Positions 286-19,630 of a DNA stretch of 64,000 nt are shown one piece after another; positions within the stretch are counted from its first letter, which is position 1, and each line of letters begins with the position of its first letter. Location: NCBI GenBank assembly GCA_964609585.1, contig CAZSRA010000004.1:27417-91416 (forward strand), read 5' to 3'. Both the position numbers and the translations under genes were made by a program. Under the pieces are notes generated by a model, which was given only the letters and a program-made list of their open reading frames with translations, was not told the origin of the DNA and ran no database searches. This stretch comes from an uncultured Candidatus Saccharimonadales bacterium. Its GTDB lineage: Bacteria > Patescibacteriota > Saccharimonadia > UBA4664.

Positions 286-3078
286 ATGAAGAAGCCTATT
301 TTAGTCTTGGTTGATGGTTCGGCGGTGTTTCACCGCGGGTATCACGCGCTGCCGCCGCTTTCGACGCGGGAGGGGATTCCGACGAACGCGGTGCTGGGTT
401 TTGCCAACATTATCTTTAAGGTAATGGAGTCGCTGAAGCCGACATACGTAGTGGTGGCGTGGGATAAATCGAGCAAGACGTTTCGCAAGGAAATGTATGC
501 TGAGTATAAGGCGACGCGCACAAAGCAGCCGGATGATCTCTATGCGCAGATTCCGCACACGCGCGAGCTGGTGGAGGCGCTGAATTTGCCGTGGGTGGAG
601 CTGGAAAACTACGAGGCGGATGACATTATTGGGACGTTTGCACGGCAGGCAGAAGAGCGTGGCGACGTGGATATTGTGATCGCCACGGGCGATAAAGATC
701 AGCTACAGTTGATTGATAAAAGCACAGTGGTGGACATGTTTAATCCGCGGGGACTTGAGCCGACGCGGTACGACCTCGCCAAAATGCAGGAGCGGTACGG
801 GCTGACGCCGACGCAATTTATTGATTATAAGGCGCTGGTGGGGGATACGAGCGATAATATTCCGGGTGTGAAGGGGATTGGCGATAAGGGGGCGATTAAG
901 CTGCTGGCGGAGTATGGGTCGCTGGACGGGATTTATGAGCACGTAGACGAGATTAAGGGCAGTGTGGGTGAGAAACTGCGGGCCGAGAAGGATATGGCTT
1001 ATTTGAGCCATAAACTGAGCGTGATTGTGTGCGACGCGCCGGTGACATTGGATCTAGAGGCGGCGAAATTGCGACCGCACGATTATGGGCATTTGAAGGA
1101 GCTGTTTCGGAAGCTGGAATTTCGGAGCTTGATGGCGAAATTGCCGGTGCTGGAGGCTGTAGAGTCGGGGAAGGCGCCGGGTGGGGCGGCTTCGGCCACG
1201 GGGACATTGAGCTTGTTTGGCGAAGACACGGGCGAGTCGGCCAAAAAAGACCGCGAGCATCTGAAAACGGCGAAGTACTACACGGTGGAGACGACGGAGG
1301 CGCTGGAGAAGCTGGCACGGGAGTTGGAGCAGCAGGAGGTGTTTGCGTTTGATACGGAGACGACGGGCGTGGACACGTTGGCGGCGGATTTGGTGGGGAT
1401 TTCTGTGGCTTTTCGTGAGGGCGAAGCGTACTACATTCCCGTGGGGCATACGCAGGGTACGCAGCTCAAGCATGATGAGGTGCTGGCGCGGCTGAAGCCG
1501 ATTTGGGAGAATCCGAAGATTGGCAAGGTGGGGCACAACCTTAAATTTGACTACGAGATGCTGCGTAAATATGGGGTGAAAACGGCCAATATTGCGTTTG
1601 ATACGATGATTGCGGGCTTTTTGCTGAACTCAGCTGGCCGGTCGCAGTCGCTCGACGATATGGCATACGCGGAGCTGGGGATCGAGATGATTCCGATTTC
1701 GGAGATGATTGGCGCGGATAAAAAGTCGCAGGTGACGTTTGATACGACGTTGATTGAGGATGCCACGACCTATGCGGCGGAGGATGCCGATATGAGCTGG
1801 CGGCTGTATGTAAAGCTGCGGGAGCGGTTGCATCAGAATTCGAAGCTCAATGAGTATGGCTGGAGTATGGAGCGGCTGGCTACGGAGGTGGAGTGGCCGA
1901 TTGTGGGGATTTTGGCTGAGATGGAGCTCAAAGGTATTGAGCTGGACGTGCCGTTTCTCGCGGCCTTTGGGAAGCGATTGAGTGAGCGGATTGGGGAGCT
2001 CAAGGGCAAAATTTATGATCTGGCCGGCGAGGAGTTTAACCTTGGTTCGCCGGCGCAGATGGGACAGATTTTGTATGGTCGATTGGGGCTGACGGCGATT
2101 GGCATTAAGAAGGGTAAAACGGGTCTGAGTACGGCGGCGGCAGAGCTGGAAAAGATGAAGGATGCGCATCCGATTGTGCCGCTCATTATGGAATTTCGGG
2201 AAATGGATAAGCTCATGAGCACGTATGTGCTAGCGTTGCCGGACCAGGTGGCGGCGGACGGGCGGGTGCATACGAACTTTTCGCAGGCGATCGTGCCGAG
2301 TGGGCGGCTGAGCTCAAATAACCCGAATTTACAGAATATTCCGGTGCGTACGGAGCTTGGTCGGGAGATCCGGACCGCATTTGTGGCGCCGAAGGGCAGG
2401 GTGCTTGTAAGCGCGGATTATTCGCAGATTGAGCTGCGAGTGGCGGCAGCGATGGCTGGTGACGAGGACATGATGCAGACGTTTCGCGACGGGCTGGATC
2501 TCCACCAGCAGACGGCGGCGGAATTGTATGATGTGCCACTTGAGGAGGTGACGAAGGAGATGCGCAGTGCGTCGAAGACGATTAACTTTGGCGTGCTGTA
2601 TGGGATGAGTGCGCATGGCTTGAGTGTGGCCACGGGTATGGACCTGAAGCAGGCAAATGAATTTATTGAGCGATATTTTGAGGTGCGGCCGAAGCTGAAA
2701 GAGTTTATAGAAAAAACGAAGAAGATGGCGTATGACGAGCAGTATACGGCCACGATTTTTGATCGACGTCGGCCGTGCCCGGAGATTCGCACGAATAATT
2801 TTCATATAAAGCAGGCGGCGGAGCGGGTGGCGGTGAACGTGCCGATTCAAGGGACGGCGGCGGACATTTATAAACTGGCGATGATTGCACTGGTGAAGCG
2901 GCTGGATGATGATTGCCAGATGTTGCTGCAGATTCACGACGAGCTGATCGTGGAGGCGCCGGCGGAAAAAGGCGAGGCGGTGGCGGCGCTGATGAAAGAG
3001 GCTATGGAAGGCGTGATAGATCTGGGCGTGCCATTGGTGGTAGATACGGCTGTGGGGGTGAACTGGGGAGAATTATGA
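286..3078 (+). CDS. polA: DNA polymerase I (5'-3' exonuclease, 3'-5' exonuclease and polymerase domains)
   Basis: 930-aa ORF; polymerase motifs (DYSQIELR, QIHDELI). Confidence 0.95.
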   Translation: MKKPILVLVDGSAVFHRGYHALPPLSTREGIPTNAVLGFANIIFKVMESLKPTYVVVAWDKSSKTFRKEMYAEYKATRTKQPDDLYAQIPHTRELVEALNLPWVELENYEADDIIGTFARQAEERGDVDIVIATGDKDQLQLIDKSTVVDMFNPRGLEPTRYDLAKMQERYGLTPTQFIDYKALVGDTSDNIPGVKGIGDKGAIKLLAEYGSLDGIYEHVDEIKGSVGEKLRAEKDMAYLSHKLSVIVCDAPVTLDLEAAKLRPHDYGHLKELFRKLEFRSLMAKLPVLEAVESGKAPGGAASATGTLSLFGEDTGESAKKDREHLKTAKYYTVETTEALEKLARELEQQEVFAFDTETTGVDTLAADLVGISVAFREGEAYYIPVGHTQGTQLKHDEVLARLKPIWENPKIGKVGHNLKFDYEMLRKYGVKTANIAFDTMIAGFLLNSAGRSQSLDDMAYAELGIEMIPISEMIGADKKSQVTFDTTLIEDATTYAAEDADMSWRLYVKLRERLHQNSKLNEYGWSMERLATEVEWPIVGILAEMELKGIELDVPFLAAFGKRLSERIGELKGKIYDLAGEEFNLGSPAQMGQILYGRLGLTAIGIKKGKTGLSTAAAELEKMKDAHPIVPLIMEFREMDKLMSTYVLALPDQVAADGRVHTNFSQAIVPSGRLSSNNPNLQNIPVRTELGREIRTAFVAPKGRVLVSADYSQIELRVAAAMAGDEDMMQTFRDGLDLHQQTAAELYDVPLEEVTKEMRSASKTINFGVLYGMSAHGLSVATGMDLKQANEFIERYFEVRPKLKEFIEKTKKMAYDEQYTATIFDRRRPCPEIRTNNFHIKQAAERVAVNVPIQGTAADIYKLAMIALVKRLDDDCQMLLQIHDELIVEAPAEKGEAVAALMKEAMEGVIDLGVPLVVDTAVGVNWGEL

Positions 3079-13658: not shown

Positions 13659-15887
13659 TTGGAACCAAATAAACAACAACCATCAGCCCAAAATGACTCG
13701 GCTGGTACAAATAGCGCGAAGCCTCGGGTGAGTAACCCGGTGGCTGGTAATGCGCCGAAATTGCCCCCAAGGCCGGAGTTTGAGCAGGCGTCGCGTCCGG
13801 CACAGCGACCGTGGCAGGCTCGAACCCCGCGGGCTGACGGTGCGGCGGGCCAAGGTGGGCTGGCGCGACCGGCGGCTAGGCCAGTGGGGCAGCCACCGCG
13901 AAACGGTGCGGCGGGTGTGCGACCGGTGGGCGCTGTGGGTGCACGGCCGGCTGGCGTGCGACCAAATGGGCTAGCGCCGGCGAGTGCTCAGTCCGGCGGT
14001 GTTCGTCCGCAGGGCGGCAATGGTGGCGGTAATCGAGGCGGCGGGAATCGCCGGCGAGGTGGCCAATCACAAGTGCCAAATCACACGGATTTGATGCCCG
14101 CACTCGATGCGATGCCGGTGAACAAGAGCATTTTTAATGGCTTGGCGGGCGTGCAGCAATCGAAGAAGCAGTCCCGTGGACCGGCAAACCAGGTGACGAA
14201 CAGCCCGAAGCTGAAGGTGATGCCTTTGGGCGGCCTGGGTGAGATCGGCAAGAACATGATGGCGATTGAGTATGGCAACGAAATTATTATTTTGGATATG
14301 GGTTTTGCGTTTCCGGACGCGAATCAGCCGGGTGTGGATTACATTTTGCCAGATGTAACGTATCTTGAGAAGAATCGTCATAAGGTGAAGGCGATTGTAA
14401 TTACGCACGGTCACATGGACCACATTGGCGCTTCGGGTTATATGATTCCGAAGTTTCCGGTGCCGATTTATGGCTCACGATTGAGCTTGGGCATGGTAGC
14501 AAAGCAGATCGAAGAGTTTAAGATTCAGACGCCGCGGTTTGTGGTGATGGATCCAGACAAGCACGAAAAGGTGCAAATTGGTAATTTTAGTATTGAGCTG
14601 GTGCGGGTGACGCACACGATTTCGGACGCGACAGCGATTATTATTCGTACGCCGGTGGGCATCATCATCGATACCGGTGACTGGCGCATGGACCCGACGC
14701 CGCTTGACGGCAAAATGATGGACCTGGCGCGGTTTAAGGAGCTGGGCGACGAGGGCGTGCTGCTGCTCATGAGCGACTCCACAAGCTGCGACAAGGTGGG
14801 CCGTGGTGGTAGTGAAAAGCTGGTGGAGCCGACGATTCACGATTTGTTTGGTCGGGCGGACGGACGCATTATTATTTCCACGTTTTCGAGCTCGATTACG
14901 CGGGTGCAGTTGATCATTGAGGCGGCAGCGAAGTCGGGGCGGAAGCTGGCCTTGGTGGGCCGCTCGATGTTGTCGACGATTGAGTTGTGCGTGAAGATGG
15001 GGTACTTGAGCGTGCCGCAGGGGCTGTTGATTCGAGCCCAGGACCTTAGTAATCATCCGGACGGTCAGATTGTAGTGCTTTGTACGGGTTCGCAGGGTGA
15101 GGAAAATTCGGCCTTGTCGCGCATGAGCACGGGTGATCACCAAAATGTGAAGATTAAGCCGGGCGACACAGTGATCTTTAGCTCGAGCGTGATTCCGGGT
15201 AATGAAGTGGCGATTGTGAAGCTGGTAGATAATTTGATGCGCGAAGGGGCGAGCGTGTTTTCGCGCGCGACTGAGGCTTTGCGCGGGCACGGAACGGTGC
15301 ACGTGGGTGGTCACGCTTCGCGCGACGACGTGGCGGATCTCGTGAGTTTGGTGCGACCGAAGTTCTTTATGCCGATCCACGGTGAGTTTCACCACTTGGT
15401 GTACAACTCCGAGGTAGCAGTGGAAAACGGCGTGCCGCGAGAGAACTGCTTTGTGATGGATAATGGGGACGTGCTCGAGCTCACAGCAACGACAGCTCAA
15501 AAGGGTGCACGCATTCCGGCCGGCATGGTGATGGTGGACGGTGCGGGAGTAGGGGATGTGGAAGGTGTGGTGTTGCGCGACCGGTTGGCGCTGGGCGGCG
15601 AAGGTGTGTTTATGATCATTGCTACGGTGAGCCGGAAGACGGGGCGACTGGTGAGTAGCCCGGACATTATTTCGCGCGGCTTCATTTATATGAAGGAGCA
15701 CGAGGAGCTGATTAATTCGGCGCGGGCGGAAGTGCGTAAAGCGTTTGAAAAGCGGACAGTGACGGGCAATCCGAGCCGTGAAGACTGGGCGAAGTTTAAG
15801 CTGCGTTTGCGGGATGACATTGGCGACTTATTGTATTCAAAAACGAAGCGAAATCCCATGGTGCTGCCGGTAATTAACGAAGTTTAG
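13659..15887 (+). CDS. rnj: ribonuclease J (metallo-beta-lactamase/beta-CASP) with ~185-aa Arg/Gly/Pro-rich N-terminal extension
   Basis: HGHMDHIG motif, beta-CASP and C-terminal domain; catalytic part begins ~14215. Confidence 0.9.
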   Translation: MEPNKQQPSAQNDSAGTNSAKPRVSNPVAGNAPKLPPRPEFEQASRPAQRPWQARTPRADGAAGQGGLARPAARPVGQPPRNGAAGVRPVGAVGARPAGVRPNGLAPASAQSGGVRPQGGNGGGNRGGGNRRRGGQSQVPNHTDLMPALDAMPVNKSIFNGLAGVQQSKKQSRGPANQVTNSPKLKVMPLGGLGEIGKNMMAIEYGNEIIILDMGFAFPDANQPGVDYILPDVTYLEKNRHKVKAIVITHGHMDHIGASGYMIPKFPVPIYGSRLSLGMVAKQIEEFKIQTPRFVVMDPDKHEKVQIGNFSIELVRVTHTISDATAIIIRTPVGIIIDTGDWRMDPTPLDGKMMDLARFKELGDEGVLLLMSDSTSCDKVGRGGSEKLVEPTIHDLFGRADGRIIISTFSSSITRVQLIIEAAAKSGRKLALVGRSMLSTIELCVKMGYLSVPQGLLIRAQDLSNHPDGQIVVLCTGSQGEENSALSRMSTGDHQNVKIKPGDTVIFSSSVIPGNEVAIVKLVDNLMREGASVFSRATEALRGHGTVHVGGHASRDDVADLVSLVRPKFFMPIHGEFHHLVYNSEVAVENGVPRENCFVMDNGDVLELTATTAQKGARIPAGMVMVDGAGVGDVEGVVLRDRLALGGEGVFMIIATVSRKTGRLVSSPDIISRGFIYMKEHEELINSARAEVRKAFEKRTVTGNPSREDWAKFKLRLRDDIGDLLYSKTKRNPMVLPVINEV

Positions 15888-16021
15888 GACCAGTATCTGG
15901 GACGCAGAGGTCTCGATCGATTCGTTATAACAAGCATATTTGTGGCTTGTTTCAGGGCCGGTAGTTGCAAGCATTGAGCTATTGAGCAGGCTGCTTGACG
16001 GCCCGGCTTTGTGGTGGCGTG

Positions 16022-16067
16022 TTGCATAAACCTATCCAGAATGATATACTTAACATGTACGTTAAGT
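16022..16067 (+). promoter_or_regulatory. predicted promoter (TTGCAT-N17-TATACT with TG extension) overlapped by palindromic operator ACTTAAC-ATGTAC-GTTAAGT
   Basis: read directly; 7-bp perfect inverted arms at 16048..16067 just upstream of DUF3224 gene. Confidence 0.5.
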
Positions 16068-16087
16068 AAAATAGGATTTAGGTAATT

Positions 16088-16498
16088 GTGAATACAGATA
16101 AGAAATATGCGAAAGCAACTATGACGATAAGCGGGCACTCGGCTGAGCCATATGACGAGCCAAAAGAAGGCCCAAGTCTTATAAAGGGTCATTCTGAAGA
16201 GCGATATAGCGGCGAGATCGCGGGGGTGGGTGTGCTCGAATTTGTGCAGGCGAATCAACAAGATGGATCGGCCACTTTTACCGGGATTAAGCGGATAACC
16301 GGTACGCTCGACGGCAAGCAAGGCTCATTTTTGCTTCAAGATACAGGGACGGTAAAAGGGACGAAGCTTGATGGGGATTGGCTGATTGTGCCAGGGTCGG
16401 GTACGGGTGAGTTGGTTGGGCTTCGTGGTGATGGTGGGATTCATACTGCTGTAGACGCCGACAGTCACCCCGTGCATCTTAATTATTGGTTTGAATAA
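16088..16498 (+). CDS. DUF3224 domain protein
   Basis: 136-aa ORF assigned to the DUF3224 fold family from recalled family features; GTG start, alternative ATG at 16121. Confidence 0.55.
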   Translation: MNTDKKYAKATMTISGHSAEPYDEPKEGPSLIKGHSEERYSGEIAGVGVLEFVQANQQDGSATFTGIKRITGTLDGKQGSFLLQDTGTVKGTKLDGDWLIVPGSGTGELVGLRGDGGIHTAVDADSHPVHLNYWFE

Positions 16499-16530
16499 AC
16501 CTCGCAAAGGTCTCGCTCTGTGTGGCGGGC

Positions 16531-16576
16531 TTGCAAGGACATCAAACTAGGAGTATAGTTAACGAGTATGTTAACT
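16531..16576 (+). promoter_or_regulatory. predicted promoter (TTGCAA-N17-TATAGT) overlapped by palindromic operator AGTTAAC-GAGTAT-GTTAACT that covers the arsR-family start codon (likely leaderless transcript)
   Basis: inverted repeat 16557..16576 read directly; similar half-sites to the 16048 site. Confidence 0.5.
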
Positions 16577-16909
16577 AAAGATGTTAGCCCCGAAGAACTC
16601 AACCTTGTCTTTCTTGCTCTTGGCAACGAGAAACGGCGTGCGATTGTGAATACTCTTTCGTTTCGTCCGGCTACTGTTAGCCAATTGGCGCAAGAACATG
16701 GTTTGTCGCTGCCTTCCATTCACCGGCATATCCGTTCCTTGGAGGAGGCTGGGCTCATTCAGCGACGAAAGGTTGGCCATACCAATTTTGTGGCCATAAA
16801 ACGTGCCGCGCTGAAAGCCGCCCAGGCTTGGATGGGTCAATACCATTTGGAGTGGGGTGACGATGATGAGTCGCTCGAGAATTACATCGACATGCTTAGT
16901 AGAAAGTAA
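16568..16909 (+). CDS. ArsR/SmtB family transcriptional regulator (no metal-binding CxC motif)
   Basis: winged HTH ATVSQLAQEHGLSLPSIHRHIRSLEEAGLI. Confidence 0.75.
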   Translation: MLTKDVSPEELNLVFLALGNEKRRAIVNTLSFRPATVSQLAQEHGLSLPSIHRHIRSLEEAGLIQRRKVGHTNFVAIKRAALKAAQAWMGQYHLEWGDDDESLENYIDMLSRK

Positions 16910-16927
16910 CAAATTGAAGGAGTAACA

Positions 16928-17227
16928 ATGAAGAACTATCTTATCATCAACCACAGTGATGGCACGACTGCCCCGGCCGGCCAAGCGGAGTGGGGGAAGT
17001 ACTTTGAGGTATTGAAGGATAACCTTGTGGACGGTGGCAAGCCAATCACCAAAACCCAGGCTGTGATTAAAGACAACAAGGTTACCGAGGCGTCAGATAC
17101 GGTGGTTGGATATACCATTCTTAAGGCTGAAAGTCTTGATGAAGCGACTGAACTTGTGGTTAAGGCTAGTCCGCTGGCCAATAAGCCTGGCTGTGAAGTT
17201 CGTGTGTATGAAATGATGCAGATGTAA
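16928..17227 (+). CDS. YciI-like / Dabb-fold small protein
   Basis: 99 aa; good SD AAGGAG; pattern VGYTILKAESLDEATELV resembles YciI family. Confidence 0.45.
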   Translation: MKNYLIINHSDGTTAPAGQAEWGKYFEVLKDNLVDGGKPITKTQAVIKDNKVTEASDTVVGYTILKAESLDEATELVVKASPLANKPGCEVRVYEMMQM

Positions 17228-17416
17228 AACGGCTGAAAAAGACAGGGAAGTGGCACATGCTATCTGGCGTGGGCCATTTTTCTTTTGAGGGATGGATTGA
17301 GGCGTAGCTGAATAAAATTGCGCGACGTTATTCGATTTAGCTTCGAGCGGGAGCTGTCTGAACAATTTTTGAGTTCTGATTAGCTTATGCTTGCGATCTG
17401 ATATAATGACACAACG

Positions 17417-19630
17417 ATGGCTGCCAAGAAATCAACCAGGAAAACACGCAAGGCACCGGCCTCTAGGCGTTCTAAGGCAAAGGCGCGCAAGCTTTCGCCG
17501 GAAGCCCAGCGCGAAATATCGGCAGTGGTGCTAGGACTGCTAGCATTGTTGACAGCTTTTGCGTGCTTTAATTTTGGTGGCACGTTGCCGTCTGGAATGT
17601 TTCACGGTTTGCGAGTGGCGATGGGGTACGCGGCGTATCTTTTGCCGGTGATTTTTGGGGCTTTGGCGTGGATGCTGTTTCAGCCGGACAAATATACGGT
17701 GAAGGGGCTGAACTATTTGGGATTTGCGGGGTTGCTGGCTAGCTTGTCGGCATTGTTTCATATTGGGTTTGGGAGTACAGATGGTAGCCTGGCCGCTCAA
17801 AATGGTTTGGGCGGTGGGTATTTGGGGTATGGGATCTCGAGTTGGATGTTGATGGTGCTAAATAGCGTGGCGGCAAGTATTGTGCTGGTGGCGCTCATGG
17901 CAATTTTCTTGATTTTGGCGACGAACACGAATTTGAAAGCGCTGTTTGGCACGATTTTTGCCGGGTTTACCCGTGAGGGTAAAGAAAAGGAAGAGAAGGC
18001 GCCGGAGGTAAAGCCGGATCTTGCCCAGCTGACCGTGAACGACAACTCGGGTTCGCCGGTGACGACTTTGCCGATGCGCGGTGAGCTGAATGTGGGCGGG
18101 GCGAAGAAGACGGTGAGTGCTCCGATGCCGGAACAGCCGCAAGAGGCGCTAACGGCGAATTCGGAAGAGGCGTGGACGCCGCCGAGCTTGGATTTGCTCC
18201 AGGCAACGAGTACGAAGGCGGATGCCGGGGACGTGAAGGCGAACGCAACGACGATCCAGAGTACGATGGAGAGCTTCGGCATTCATGTGACGATGGGCGA
18301 GGTGAATGTGGGGCCAACAGTGACGCAGTATACGTTTATTCCGCCGGCGGGAGTGAAGCTTAACAAGATTACGGGGCTGGATACGAACTTGGCTTTGAGT
18401 TTGGCGGCGCACCCGATTCGGATTGAAGCGCCGATTCCGGGAAAGAGCGCAGTGGGAGTGGAGATTCCAAATAAGGCGATTGCAACGGTGCGGCTGCGCG
18501 ATGTGCTGAGCGCGCCGGAGATTAAATCACAGAAGACGCCGCTGACGTTTGTGCTGGGGCGGGACGTGAGTGGGACGCCGATGAGCTCAGATCTGGCGGC
18601 GATGCCGCACCTTTTGATCGCTGGGGCTACGGGCTCGGGTAAGTCGGTGATGATTAACGCGCTTTTGACGAGCCTGCTGTACCGGAATTCGCCGGCGGAT
18701 ATGAAGTTGATTTTGGTGGACCCGAAGCGGGTGGAGTTAGGGTTATATAACGATATTCCGCATCTTTTGACACCGGTGATTGTGGAGCCGGAGAAGTGTA
18801 TTTCGGCACTGAAATGGGCGGTGGCGGAGATGGAGCGCCGGTACAAGCTGCTGGCGGAGATGGGTAATCGCAACATTGTGGAGTACAACACGGCGCACAA
18901 GGGTGAAGCGATGCCATATATCGTAATTGTGATTGATGAGCTGGCGGACCTGATGGTGCTGGCGGCGGCGGATGTGGAGACATTGATTGTGCGATTGGCG
19001 CAGATGGCGCGCGCCGTGGGCATCCACTTGGTGCTGGCGACGCAGCGGCCCAGTGTGGATGTGATTACGGGTATTATTAAGGCGAATATCCCGGCGCGGC
19101 TGGCGTTTAGCGTAGCGAGCCAGATTGATTCGCGGACGATTTTGGACCAGATGGGGGCGGAAAAGCTTTTGGGTAAGGGTGACATGCTGTTTTCGAGCCC
19201 GGAATACATTAAGCCAAGGCGGATTCAGGGTGTGTATGTGGACGATAAGGAGACGAAGGCGGTTACGGATTATTTGCGGTCGGCGCGCTCGCCACAGTAC
19301 AACGATGAGGTGCTGGCGCAGAAGGTGTCGATTGGTAAAGGCGGTGGCGGAGGCGGCGGGGGCGACATGGGCGAGCCGGACGACGATATGTTTAATGAGG
19401 CGGCGGAGGCGGTGTTTCGAGCCGGGAAGGCGAGTGCGAGTATGCTGCAGCGGCGGTTGCGGATCGGATATGCTCGGGCGGCGCGGTTGTTGGATCTTTT
19501 GGAGGAGCGCGGGATTATTGGGCCGGCGGATGGGGCGCGGCCAAGGGACGTGTTGATTTCGAGTTTGGATCAGATTGGGTCTGGCGGTGATGGTGATGTG
19601 ATGCGGCAGGCGGAGCCTTACGAGGAGTAG
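17417..19630 (+). CDS. ftsK: DNA translocase FtsK/SpoIIIE
   Basis: N-terminal TM segments, Walker A GATGSGKS, gamma winged-helix C-terminus; Gly8 run. Confidence 0.9.
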   Translation: MAAKKSTRKTRKAPASRRSKAKARKLSPEAQREISAVVLGLLALLTAFACFNFGGTLPSGMFHGLRVAMGYAAYLLPVIFGALAWMLFQPDKYTVKGLNYLGFAGLLASLSALFHIGFGSTDGSLAAQNGLGGGYLGYGISSWMLMVLNSVAASIVLVALMAIFLILATNTNLKALFGTIFAGFTREGKEKEEKAPEVKPDLAQLTVNDNSGSPVTTLPMRGELNVGGAKKTVSAPMPEQPQEALTANSEEAWTPPSLDLLQATSTKADAGDVKANATTIQSTMESFGIHVTMGEVNVGPTVTQYTFIPPAGVKLNKITGLDTNLALSLAAHPIRIEAPIPGKSAVGVEIPNKAIATVRLRDVLSAPEIKSQKTPLTFVLGRDVSGTPMSSDLAAMPHLLIAGATGSGKSVMINALLTSLLYRNSPADMKLILVDPKRVELGLYNDIPHLLTPVIVEPEKCISALKWAVAEMERRYKLLAEMGNRNIVEYNTAHKGEAMPYIVIVIDELADLMVLAAADVETLIVRLAQMARAVGIHLVLATQRPSVDVITGIIKANIPARLAFSVASQIDSRTILDQMGAEKLLGKGDMLFSSPEYIKPRRIQGVYVDDKETKAVTDYLRSARSPQYNDEVLAQKVSIGKGGGGGGGGDMGEPDDDMFNEAAEAVFRAGKASASMLQRRLRIGYARAARLLDLLEERGIIGPADGARPRDVLISSLDQIGSGGDGDVMRQAEPYEE

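What the first reader, a model, noticed from the sequence alone, without database searches (positions are those of the whole stretch)
16022..17227. ArsR-family regulon with two matching palindromic operators; the regulator gene is probably leaderless
Two 20-bp sites with the same architecture are present: ACTTAAC-ATGTAC-GTTAAGT at 16048..16067 and AGTTAAC-GAGTAT-GTTAACT at 16557..16576. Both have 7-bp inverted arms with a 6-bp spacer. The first overlaps the -10 region and TSS of the DUF3224 gene. The second overlaps the -10 region and the ATG of the ArsR/SmtB-family regulator, placing the -10 hexamer ~9 nt upstream of the start codon, which implies a leaderless mRNA. The regulator lacks the metal-binding Cys motif, so it probably senses something other than metals. 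The operon continues into a YciI-like gene. This is a small, self-contained, predicted auto-regulated circuit.
Basis: seen in the sequence. Interest (0 to 1): 0.55.

Follow-up and report, generated by a model that had tools for sequence, protein, structure and literature searches.

The report
ArsR autorepressor with two conserved operators
A small three-gene cassette in a Saccharimonadia (TM7) genome carries two copies of a palindromic DNA site that is almost certainly the binding site of its own ArsR-type repressor; the same site is conserved in front of related regulators across many phyla, so the circuit is real but of a familiar kind.

Summary
The core TTAAC-N6-GTTAA occurs exactly twice in 64 kb (0.03 expected). 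Each starts inside a sigma-70-like -10 hexamer with a -35 hexamer 17 bp upstream.

Comparison makes this strong. The same palindrome, really 9-6-9 (ATASTTAAC-N6-GTTAASTAT), sits at the regulator's start in 76 of 82 related loci and nowhere else in 449 kb. In an unbiased metagenome scan, 55 of 120 sites abut an ArsR homologue. The closest relative (84% identity) keeps both operators with DUF3224-ArsR-YCII synteny.

In the window and about 14 close relatives, the only usable ATG lies inside the operator, 9 nt after the -10. This supports a leaderless mRNA but does not prove it.

The regulator has the ArsR fold (closest 3F6O), no cysteine and no conserved metal site. Its conserved partner is a divergent YCII-like protein. 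DUF3224 is a lineage-specific addition.

The likely mechanism is dimer binding over -10/+1, which represses both promoters until an unknown non-metal signal relieves it. Binding, transcription start and inducer are untested.

New here: the operator is shared with the large, uncharacterised ArsR clade linked to SRPBCC/AHSA1 genes, and it encodes their N-termini (MLS, MVKY).

The parts
16022..16027 (+). P1 -35-like hexamer TTGCAT (DUF3224 promoter)
   Evidence: Read from the sequence. It lies 17 bp before TATACT. TTGCA is conserved in relative L081 while the flanks diverge.
16045..16050 (+). P1 -10-like hexamer TATACT, overlapping the left arm of operator O1
   Evidence: It has the same register as in 76 related regulator promoters.
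16046..16069 (.).
   Evidence: Exact core match, one of only two in 64 kb. Conserved upstream of DUF3224 in L081.
16088..16498 (+). DUF3224 gene (136 aa, GTG start), with a predicted ~30-nt leader carrying AGGA/AGGT
   Evidence: Pfam DUF3224 8.5e-30. PDB relatives 2Q03 and 2OOJ are uncharacterised. An orthologue sits in the same position in L081.
16531..16536 (+). P2 -35-like hexamer TTGCAA (arsR promoter)
   Evidence: Promoter scan. TTGACA-like hexamers at 16-18 bp spacing, with at least 5 of 6 matches, occur in 57 of 76 related loci.
16554..16559 (+). P2 -10-like hexamer TATAGT, overlapping the left arm of operator O2
   Evidence: TATAGT or TATACT occupies this position in 52 of 76 related loci.
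16555..16578 (.). Operator O2: ATAGTTAAC-GAGTAT-GTTAACTAA (9-6-9 palindrome). It contains the arsR start codon at 16568-16570.
   Evidence: The same element is present in 76 of 82 related loci with at most 1 mismatch and 69 of 82 exactly, with no other exact copy in 448,600 bases of L001-L080.
16568..16909 (+). ArsR/SmtB-family winged-helix regulator (113 aa, no Cys); probably translated from a leaderless mRNA
   Evidence: HTH_5 and HTH_20 are above threshold. Profile match to 3F6O is 2e-23. The AF2 model has pLDDT 89.8 and TM 0.73/0.84 to 3F6O. This is the only usable start codon.
16919..16922 (+). GGAG Shine-Dalgarno sequence, 5 nt before the YCII-like start
   Evidence: Read from the sequence.
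16928..17227 (+). Divergent YCII-like protein (99 aa; DxGNPF motif; invariant C-terminal Met); the conserved operon partner of the regulator
   Evidence: tblastn finds a homologue in 69 of 80 loci, immediately after the regulator wherever I inspected it. 52 of 62 members hit Pfam YCII weakly. The AF2 model has pLDDT 86 with best TM to YciI HI0828 (0.56) and TftG (0.53).
17256..17281 (+). Weak terminator-like hairpin plus T-run, ending the cassette before the FtsK promoter
   Evidence: Terminator scan. It is no more frequent than in shuffles, so this assignment is tentative.

Best explanation
The region is a three-gene cassette, DUF3224 | arsR-like regulator - YCII-like protein, driven by two sigma-70-type promoters. 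Each promoter carries one copy of a 9-6-9 palindrome (consensus ATASTTAAC-N6-GTTAASTAT) that runs from inside the -10 hexamer to about +11. The ArsR-fold regulator most likely binds each palindrome as a homodimer, one recognition helix per half-site. This would occlude the -10/+1 region, repressing its own operon (negative autoregulation) and DUF3224. An unknown, non-metal, non-thiol signal would lower its DNA affinity. At the regulator's own promoter the start codon lies inside the operator, 9 nt after the -10. Its mRNA is therefore probably leaderless, or has a leader of at most 2 nt, and the first codons (ATG TTA ACT = M-L-T) are the right half-site itself. What the sequence and comparisons show: the sites, their register with the promoter elements, their cross-phylum conservation at this regulator family, the conserved partner gene, the fold, and the lack of Cys or other conserved metal ligands. 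What is inferred: DNA binding by this protein, repression, the transcription start, and the nature of the inducer.
For: The core occurs exactly twice in the window against 0.03 expected.

Among 80 genome loci found through the protein alone, plus the window and L081, the palindrome lies at the regulator's start in 76 of 82 (at most 1 mismatch; 69 exact). There is no other exact copy in 448,600 bases of L001-L080.

The position matrix gives TTGACA-17-TATA[G/C]TTAAC-nnnTAG-GTTAA[C/G]TAT. The right-arm flank is conserved although it is not a promoter element. The variable S position is symmetric in 61 of 76 loci. Two loci, L045 and L067, carry a symmetric variant, TTCAC-N6-GTGAA.

In an unbiased metagenome scan for the DNA pattern, 55 of 120 sites sit at the start of an ArsR homologue.

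Relative L081 (regulator 84% identical) keeps both operators and the gene order in a different genomic context. Its flanking intergenic DNA has diverged, and the S bases of O2 have swapped in both arms.

Operator-embedded ATG: it is at core position +9 in 15 loci and is the only possible start in the window, L003 and L009. 48 of 87 homologue clusters begin MLS or MLT.

A related clade starts at +8 with MVKY or MVNY, which is ATG GTT AAG/C TAT.

Fold: AF2 pLDDT 89.8, best match 3F6O, then CzrA, SrnR, HlyU and NolR. Conserved residues include no Cys and no alpha5-type ligand set.

Rv2034, a characterised non-metal ArsR autorepressor, protects a palindrome spanning -30 to +3 of its own promoter (PMC3338718). 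This gives a precedent for the mechanism.

Other window genes also show a -10 hexamer 5-10 nt before the ATG with no SD, so leaderless starts appear common in this genome.
Against: There is no experimental evidence of binding, repression or the transcription start for any member carrying this operator; I found none in the searchable literature.

No terminator is predicted between DUF3224 and arsR. Read-through from P1 could therefore give a leadered arsR mRNA, and a GGAG lies 14 nt upstream of the ATG. That GGAG is not conserved in relatives.

The A of the ATG is the 9th base after the -10, slightly beyond the usual 7-8.

The DUF3224 operator is documented in only two genomes.

Only 64 kb of the genome was available, so the full regulon is unknown.
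Confidence: 0.8

Rival explanations
1. The operators are real, but arsR is mainly expressed from a leadered transcript, either by read-through from the DUF3224 promoter or from an upstream start. It would then be translated conventionally, with GGAG at 16550-16553 serving as a distant Shine-Dalgarno. In that case 'leaderless' is wrong or a minor route.
For: No terminator-like site is predicted between 16498 and 16568. GGAG lies 14 nt before the ATG. The downstream YCII-like gene uses a normal SD, so the organism does use SD-led translation (29 of 62 ORFs).
Against: The -35/-10 pair immediately upstream is conserved in nearly all relatives. The GGAG is not conserved: it is AGAG in L081 and absent in L001-L011. 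A 14-nt spacing is poor for an SD. Most relatives have no upstream co-directional gene carrying an operator, yet keep the same geometry.
Confidence: 0.25
2. The palindromes are bound by some other transcription factor encoded elsewhere, and the adjacent ArsR gene is merely one of its targets.
For: No binding data exist. 65 of 120 metagenome sites have no detectable ArsR homologue at the site.
Against: The only genes that travel with the site across Patescibacteria, Actinomycetota, Proteobacteria, Cyanobacteria and haloarchaea are the ArsR gene and its small partner; the flanking genes differ. Many of the sites without an ArsR lie on short contigs, or about 900 nt from an ArsR gene in front of an SRPBCC gene.
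Confidence: 0.05
3. The inverted repeats act as RNA hairpins, serving as attenuators or translation-blocking structures, rather than as protein-binding DNA.
For: Each repeat can form an 8-bp stem with a 6-nt loop of -7.3 kcal/mol.
Against: The fold is no better than shuffled sequence (z = -1.1 and -0.7). With the conserved -10 lying inside the left arm, the left arm would not be transcribed, and the transcribed part alone does not fold. There is no Rfam match. The spacer sequence is not conserved, but its length is fixed at 6, as expected for a dimer site.
Confidence: 0.03
4. The ArsR / YCII-like pair is a toxin-antitoxin-like module. This follows the proposal for ArsR-SRPBCC pairs such as Rv2034/Rv2035 and MAB_3862. 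The regulator would be the antitoxin and the small partner the toxin or co-repressor.
For: A preprint calls MAB_3862 (PDB 7R22) an antitoxin, and 7R22 matches the profile at 1.9e-14. The module is a compact, autoregulated two-gene unit found in varied genomic contexts.
Against: Nothing indicates toxicity of a YCII-like protein. The partner families (SRPBCC, YCII, DUF3224, GST, MFS) look like small-molecule-handling proteins. Similarity to the Rv2034 group is distant, and the operator is different.
Confidence: 0.05
5. The two matches are coincidental AT-rich promoter sequence with no specific function.
For: The left arm overlaps a -10 hexamer, which is AT-rich anyway.
Against: 0.03 were expected and 2 observed. 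The palindrome is conserved in 76 of 82 loci with a conserved right arm that is not a promoter element. Both sites are conserved in L081.
Confidence: 0.01

Closest known systems
Rv2034 of Mycobacterium tuberculosis (ArsR-like autorepressor; homologue MAB_3862, PDB 7R22)
   Same: It is an ArsR-fold dimeric autorepressor that does not respond to metals. It footprints a palindrome covering -30 to +3 of its own promoter, sits in an operon with a small SRPBCC-type protein, and has additional target promoters (PMC3338718).
   Different: The operator is different: CCGTAAGT-N4-ACTTACGG, against ATASTTAAC-N6-GTTAASTAT here. Similarity is only distant (the profile hits 7R22 at 1.9e-14, against 2e-23 for 3F6O). 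Rv2034 has a functionally important Cys61, whereas this protein has no Cys. The partner here is YCII-like, not SRPBCC.
RHA00566 of Rhodococcus sp. RHA1 (PDB 3F6O) and the ArsR regulators linked to SRPBCC/AHSA1 genes
   Same: This is the closest solved structure: 37-39% identity and TM 0.73/0.84, with the HMM profile match running through the C-terminal region. Members of this clade carry the same TTAAC-N6-GTTAA operator at their own start and in front of SRPBCC genes, often with the ATG inside the operator.
   Different: Those regulators are only 31-41% identical to this one, are followed by SRPBCC/AHSA1 genes rather than a YCII-like gene, and start at core position +8 (MVKY/MVNY) rather than +9 (MLS/MLT). 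None of them appears to be characterised; a 2014 Frankia paper notes that the ArsR-AHSA1 link 'has not been elucidated'.
Classical metal-sensing ArsR/SmtB repressors (SmtB, CzrA, CadC, ArsR)
   Same: They share the winged-helix fold, dimeric binding to an inverted repeat overlapping the promoter, and autoregulation (established knowledge of the family).
   Different: This protein has no alpha3 Cys motif and no Cys at all, and no conserved alpha5 ligand set. It has an extra C-terminal helix. The signal is therefore not expected to be a metal or a thiol-reactive species.
SrnR of Streptomyces griseus (PDB 7P6F)
   Same: It has the ArsR fold (TM about 0.7). From my own knowledge, not checked here, SrnR is reported to work with a small co-encoded partner, SrnQ. 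That would be a precedent for a two-protein ArsR switch.
   Different: The partner families are not related, the sequence identity is low (22-24%), and SrnR is linked to nickel. Nothing here shows an interaction between the regulator and the YCII-like protein.

Membership tests
ArsR/SmtB family of winged-helix repressors | HTH_5/HTH_20 winged-helix domain with alpha1-alpha2-alpha3-alphaR-beta1-beta2-alpha5 topology | tested here: met
   Pfam HTH_5 scores 39.1 bits (cut-off 22) and HTH_20 scores 38.6 (cut-off 27). The AF2 model shows H8-18, H21-32, H37-43, H48-60, E64-69, E72-77 and H79-89, plus an extra H103-112. The top fold matches are all ArsR-family structures.
ArsR/SmtB family of winged-helix repressors | Inverted-repeat operator overlapping the regulator's own promoter (autoregulation) | tested here: met
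   This was tested at the sequence level only. The palindrome overlaps -10/+1 at the regulator's own promoter and is conserved in 76 of 82 loci. Physical binding was not tested.
ArsR/SmtB family of winged-helix repressors | Metal or metalloid sensing site (alpha3 CXC, alpha3N or alpha5 ligands) | tested here: not met
   The 113-aa protein has no cysteine. The invariant residues are R23, R24, L30, P34, L40, A41, L48, H52, H54, L58, E59, A61, R66, K68, G70, G97, L103, N105 and Y106. H52 and H54 lie in the recognition helix, and there is no alpha5 D/H/H/E set. NCBIfam HTH_metalloreg scores 53.5, below its cut-off of 55.
ArsR/SmtB family of winged-helix repressors | Derepression by an effector that lowers DNA affinity | not testable with these tools
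   This needs EMSA or ITC with candidate ligands.
SRPBCC/AHSA1-linked ArsR clade (3F6O type) | Near-full-length similarity by HMM profile, running into the C-terminal region (W..(Y/F)....W...(E/D).L..(Y/F)) | tested here: met
   The profile matches 3F6O at 2e-23 over residues 6-109.
SRPBCC/AHSA1-linked ArsR clade (3F6O type) | Co-transcribed SRPBCC/AHSA1 gene | tested here: not met
   The downstream gene here and in 69 of 80 relatives is YCII-like. SRPBCC partners are found only with the 31-41%-identical clade.
SRPBCC/AHSA1-linked ArsR clade (3F6O type) | TTAAC-N6-GTTAA operator at the regulator's start (a feature defined here, not in the literature) | tested here: met
YCII (PF03795) for the downstream protein | Pfam score at or above the gathering threshold | tested here: not met
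   The window protein scores 20 bits against a cut-off of 24. 52 of 62 family members match at E<=0.01, best 4.6e-6.
YCII (PF03795) for the downstream protein | Ferredoxin-like alpha/beta fold of YciI/TftG | tested here: inconclusive
   The AF2 model has pLDDT 86. The highest TM scores are to HI0828 (0.56) and TftG (0.53), but Foldseek E-values are about 1e-3, and other ferredoxin-like proteins such as PII and CutA score similarly.
YCII (PF03795) for the downstream protein | Conserved His/Asp catalytic dyad | tested here: not met
   There is no invariant His. D35 is conserved within a DxGNPF motif.
DUF3224 (PF11528) | Pfam score at or above the gathering threshold | tested here: met
   103.6 bits against a cut-off of 25, covering 126 of 126 profile positions.
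Leaderless mRNA | Primary 5' end at, or within a few nt of, the start codon | not testable with these tools
   Only the geometry is available. The -10 ends 8 nt before the A of the ATG. A pyrimidine precedes that A in 13 of the 15 loci with the ATG at core position +9 (exceptions L032 and L033), read from the sequences.
Leaderless mRNA | No Shine-Dalgarno sequence in a usable position | tested here: met
   The 13 nt before the ATG are the left arm and spacer. The only purine-rich run (GGAG) lies 14 nt upstream, before the -10, and is not conserved.

The most novel reading that the evidence does not exclude
TTAAC-N6-GTTAA, with the start codon embedded in it, may be the ancestral cis-signature of a very large, uncharacterised, non-metal ArsR clade found in bacteria and on haloarchaeal plasmids. 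This clade is linked to SRPBCC/AHSA1, YCII-like and DUF3224 genes. In this reading the co-transcribed small ligand-binding protein, not the regulator itself, is the sensor or anti-repressor, giving a two-protein switch. The YCII-linked branch would have been exchanged between Saccharibacteria and the Actinomycetota they live on.
Probability: 0.2. Interest if true: 0.65.

Novelty: new member of a known kind. Interest (0 to 1): 0.42.

Why it matters
The circuit itself is a textbook design: an autorepressor whose palindromic operator covers its own promoter. Its value lies in what it opens up. First, it gives a precise, testable operator (ATASTTAAC-N6-GTTAASTAT) for an ArsR branch with no known signal or target. 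The same operator extends to the very common ArsR-SRPBCC/AHSA1 operons of soil bacteria, whose regulatory link I found noted as unresolved. Regulons of these regulators can now be predicted by motif search in any genome. Second, it is a clean case of DNA doing double duty. The right half-site is also the first codons of the regulator (MLS/MLT, MVKY/MVNY). This explains the oddly conserved N-termini and explains why a gene caller misplaced the start, as in L081. Third, it adds a predicted leaderless, autoregulated gene in a candidate-phyla-radiation (CPR) bacterium, where very little is known about transcription control.

Tried and rejected
- **Rfam.** A search of 15800-17500 at E<=1 found nothing.
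- **RNA folding.** The repeats fold no better than shuffles, and the part expected to be transcribed does not fold. I rejected the RNA-hairpin reading.
- **Other DUF3224 genes.** I looked for the operator in front of more distant DUF3224 genes (about 55% identity, mostly actinobacterial contexts; L082-L088) and found none. DUF3224 is therefore not a general regulon member.
- **Synteny.** I tested whether RNase J and FtsK flank the module in relatives. They do not.
- **Literature.** Searches for ArsR+YciI, DUF3224, ArsR+SRPBCC, ArsR+AHSA1, ArsR+GTTAA+inverted repeat, and Saccharibacteria+leaderless found no description of this operator or subfamily. The one ArsR-yciI paper concerns an unrelated arsenic cluster in Cupriavidus.
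- **Solved structures for the partner.** A PDB sequence search for the YCII-like protein gave only a marginal hit, PA1349 at E 0.22.
- **Homologue search for the partner.** The word-indexed search returned only 7 proteins, so the structure was predicted from a shallow alignment.
- **Rv2034 operator.** I checked whether it is the same element. It is not.
- **Whole-regulon search.** I could not scan a whole genome for further sites.
Full report
**1. The observation**

ACTTAAC-ATGTAC-GTTAAGT is at 16048..16067 and AGTTAAC-GAGTAT-GTTAACT is at 16557..16576.

- The exact core TTAAC-N6-GTTAA occurs only at these two positions in the 64-kb window. Dinucleotide-preserving shuffles give a mean of 0.03 matches, and none of 100 gives two.
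- Allowing one mismatch adds a single unrelated hit.
- The longer pattern TASTTAAC-N6-GTTAASTA, with up to three mismatches allowed, still finds only these two.
- Each site begins inside a -10-like hexamer that has a -35-like hexamer 17 bp upstream: TTGCAT(16022-27)-17-TATACT(16045-50) and TTGCAA(16531-36)-17-TATAGT(16554-59). The scan tool reports the second promoter; I read the first from the sequence.

The genes are as described:

| Coordinates | Gene | Evidence |
|---|---|---|
| 16088-16498 | DUF3224 | Pfam 8.5e-30 |
| 16568-16909 | ArsR-type regulator | HTH_5 and HTH_20 above threshold |
| 16928-17227 | 99-aa YCII-like protein | 20 bits, cut-off 24 |

The cassette lies between RNase J and FtsK.

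**2. Organism**

The names that sources give to homologues place the window in Saccharimonadia (Patescibacteria, TM7).

**3. Conservation of the regulator's own operator**

I aligned 41 homologues of the regulator (A1) and fetched 80 genome loci through the protein alone. Printing the DNA around each predicted start showed the same palindrome in nearly all of them.

- With the window and L081 included, 69 of 82 loci have an exact TTAAC-N6-GTTAA at the regulator's start, and 76 of 82 have it with at most one mismatch.
- There is no other exact copy anywhere in the 448,600 bases of L001-L080.
- The position matrix reads TTGACA-17-TATA[G/C]TTAAC-nnnTAG-GTTAA[C/G]TAT.
- The arms are therefore 9 bp (ATASTTAAC / GTTAASTAT), and the spacer has a fixed length but a variable sequence.
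- The outer right arm (S-T-A-T) is well conserved although it is not a promoter element.
- 57 of 76 loci have at least 5 of 6 matches to TTGACA at 16-18 bp from the -10.
- The variable S position is symmetric in 61 of 76 loci.
- Two loci, L045 and L067, carry a symmetric variant, TTCAC-N6-GTGAA.

By record title, the loci come from about 47 Saccharimonadia or other Patescibacteria assemblies and about 19 Actinomycetota (Acidimicrobiia, Thermoleophilia). A few are labelled Chloroflexota, Dormiibacterota or Proteobacteria.

**4. An unbiased test from the DNA side**

I scanned the metagenome collection for TASTTAAC-N6-GTTAASTA.

- In 55 of them an ArsR homologue starts within or right at the site.
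- Most of these regulators are only 31-41% identical to the window protein. They start at core position +8 with ATG GTT AAG/C TAT, which encodes MVKY or MVNY (34 of 34 in that group).
- They are followed by SRPBCC/AHSA1 genes.
- In several loci (L097, L165, L170, L191) a second copy of the site lies about 900 nt from the ArsR gene. In L097, L165 and L170 it sits in front of an AHSA1-type gene. The same site also precedes Polyketide_cyc2, MFS and GST genes in other loci.
- Annotated replicons from cultured organisms show the same thing. Ralstonia wenshanensis has TATAGTTAAC-CACATG-CTTAAC with the ATG in the spacer. Nostoc sp. C052 and the haloarchaeon Halostagnicola larsenii have exact cores upstream of ArsR-SRPBCC pairs. 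Sinorhizobium sp. RAC02 has a symmetric variant, TCAAC-N6-GTTGA.

The operator therefore belongs to a broad ArsR clade. The profile finds 3,191 cluster representatives at E<=1e-10 but only 19 at E<=1e-30, so the YCII-linked branch is small.

**5. The DUF3224 operator**

None of the 80 genome loci and none of the 120 metagenome loci encodes DUF3224. More distant DUF3224 genes lack the site.

The nearest relative of the regulator is L081, a Logan contig whose regulator is 84% identical. It has the same DUF3224-ArsR-YCII order in a different context, with NUDIX upstream and PNPOx downstream, and it has both operators.

Pairwise alignments of the two intergenic regions show that the -35, the -10 and the palindrome are conserved while the rest has diverged. 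In O2 the S bases have changed in both arms: AGTTAAC...GTTAACT in the window against ACTTAAC...GTTAAGT in L081.

The two-operator circuit is therefore real but lineage-specific. The core unit is the regulator plus the YCII-like gene, for which tblastn finds a homologue in 69 of 80 loci, immediately after the regulator wherever I inspected it.

**6. Leaderless start**

In the window the reading frame is closed upstream by TAG at 16556-58, and the next start codon is more than 60 nt downstream, inside the conserved N-terminal helix. ATG 16568 is therefore the only usable start. Its A is the 9th base after the -10 hexamer.

- The same geometry (ATG at core +9) holds in 15 loci: the window, L081, L001-L011, L032 and L033, the last being ambiguous.
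- In 13 of these 15 (all but L032 and L033) a pyrimidine precedes the A. This fits the usual pyrimidine(-1)/purine(+1) preference at transcription starts, which is established knowledge for E. coli RNA polymerase and is inferred here.
- 48 of 87 homologue clusters begin MLS or MLT, which is ATG TTA A[GC]T.
- In most other relatives the ATG lies 2-10 nt after the right arm (core +18 to +26). That gives a predicted leader of 10-15 nt with AGG in the spacer.
- The gene caller for L081 chose a downstream ATG (105 aa) and missed the operator-embedded start.
- A crude survey of the window finds other genes with a -10-like hexamer 5-10 nt before the ATG and no SD, for example FtsK (TATAATgacacaacgATG). 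Leaderless starts therefore seem common in this genome.

Two caveats apply. No terminator is predicted between DUF3224 and arsR, so a leadered read-through transcript is possible. No 5'-end data exist.

**7. The proteins**

*Regulator.* The model has pLDDT 89.8, the ArsR topology and an extra C-terminal helix. Its best structural match is 3F6O, an uncharacterised Rhodococcus RHA1 protein (TM 0.73/0.84, 37% identity). CzrA, SrnR, HlyU and NolR follow. The protein has no cysteine, and the invariant residues include no alpha5 ligand set. A metal or thiol-based signal is therefore unlikely.

*Partner.* It is a divergent YCII-like protein with a DxGNPF motif, an invariant C-terminal Met and no conserved His. 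52 of 62 members hit Pfam YCII weakly. The model has pLDDT 86, and its best TM scores are to YciI HI0828 and TftG, but at weak E-values.

*DUF3224.* It matches only uncharacterised structures.

**8. Rivals**

- An RNA-hairpin role is not supported. The fold of -7.3 kcal/mol is no better than shuffles, the left arm lies upstream of the expected transcription start, and there is no Rfam hit.
- A different, unlinked regulator is unlikely, because only the ArsR gene and its partner travel with the site.
- A toxin-antitoxin reading, as proposed for the distant Rv2034/MAB_3862 group, has nothing in its favour here.

**9. Comparison with what is known**

The mechanism matches classical ArsR/SmtB autorepression. 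It is closest to Rv2034, a non-metal ArsR autorepressor that footprints a palindrome over -30 to +3 of its own promoter. Rv2034's operator and sequence are different.

I found no paper describing this operator, this YCII-linked branch or DUF3224. A 2014 Frankia study notes that the ArsR-AHSA1 link is unresolved.

**10. Verdict**

This is a new, well-defined member of a known kind of circuit.

The added value is threefold: the operator consensus, its reach into the large ArsR clade linked to SRPBCC genes, and the overlap of operator and N-terminal codons. Binding, repression, the transcription start and the inducer remain to be shown.

Noticed in passing
window 17402-17419; also 286, 19830, 36122, 48343, 58565: Several other genes have a -10-like hexamer 5-10 nt before the ATG and no Shine-Dalgarno. 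Examples are FtsK (TATAATgacacaacgATG), 48343 (TATAATcttcttATG) and 36122 (TAGAATttggatcATG). Leaderless mRNAs may be common in this Saccharimonadia genome alongside SD-led genes (a crude survey).
   Followed up: partly
window 13659-14250: RNase J carries an N-terminal extension of about 190 aa, rich in G, R, P and A and of low complexity, before its metallo-beta-lactamase domain. Pfam domains start at residue 197. The DNA there is locally GC-rich at 0.63-0.68.
   Followed up: no
window 15900-17400: The cassette has lower GC (0.45-0.51) than its flanks (0.55-0.60). RNase J and FtsK are not next to the module in any relative, and in L081 the flanks are NUDIX and PNPOx genes. This looks like a mobile or inserted cassette. 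The family is shared between Saccharimonadia and Actinomycetota, and the nearest DUF3224 homologues that carry names are actinobacterial.
   Followed up: partly
window 16928-17227 and alignment A2: The YCII-like partner family always ends in Met (..YEAxPM-stop), has a DxGNPF motif, and lacks the His of the YCII His/Asp dyad. The invariant C-terminal Met is unexplained.
   Followed up: no
L081 2319-2663: The automated gene call starts the regulator at a downstream ATG (105 aa) and misses the operator-embedded ATG. That ATG gives the conserved MLSKDVS N-terminus. Operator-embedded starts in this family may be mis-annotated elsewhere too.
   Followed up: partly
L045 and L067 (~2970-3000); L211 (~1460-1490): Some loci carry symmetric operator variants in which both arms have changed together: TTCAC-N6-GTGAA in L045 and L067, and TCAAC-N6-GTTGA in Sinorhizobium. 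The N-terminus MVEY (ATG GTT GAA TAT), seen in 6 of 150 relatives, fits the second variant. I did not analyse which residue of the regulator tracks these changes.
   Followed up: no
L212 (Halostagnicola larsenii plasmid, ~1440-1470): An exact TTAAC-N6-GTTAA core lies upstream of an ArsR-SRPBCC pair on a haloarchaeal plasmid. The regulator-operator pair therefore crosses the bacteria/archaea boundary, where the promoter architecture differs.
   Followed up: no
L089, L097, L128, L176, L191 (metagenome loci): A recurrent longer palindrome, TATACTTAACCTATAGGTTAAGTATA, with identical spacers occurs in several unrelated contigs. Some copies have an ArsR gene about 900 nt away (L097, L191), and some sit next to an AHSA1-type gene (L089, L097, L128). 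It may mark a well-conserved sub-lineage.
   Followed up: partly
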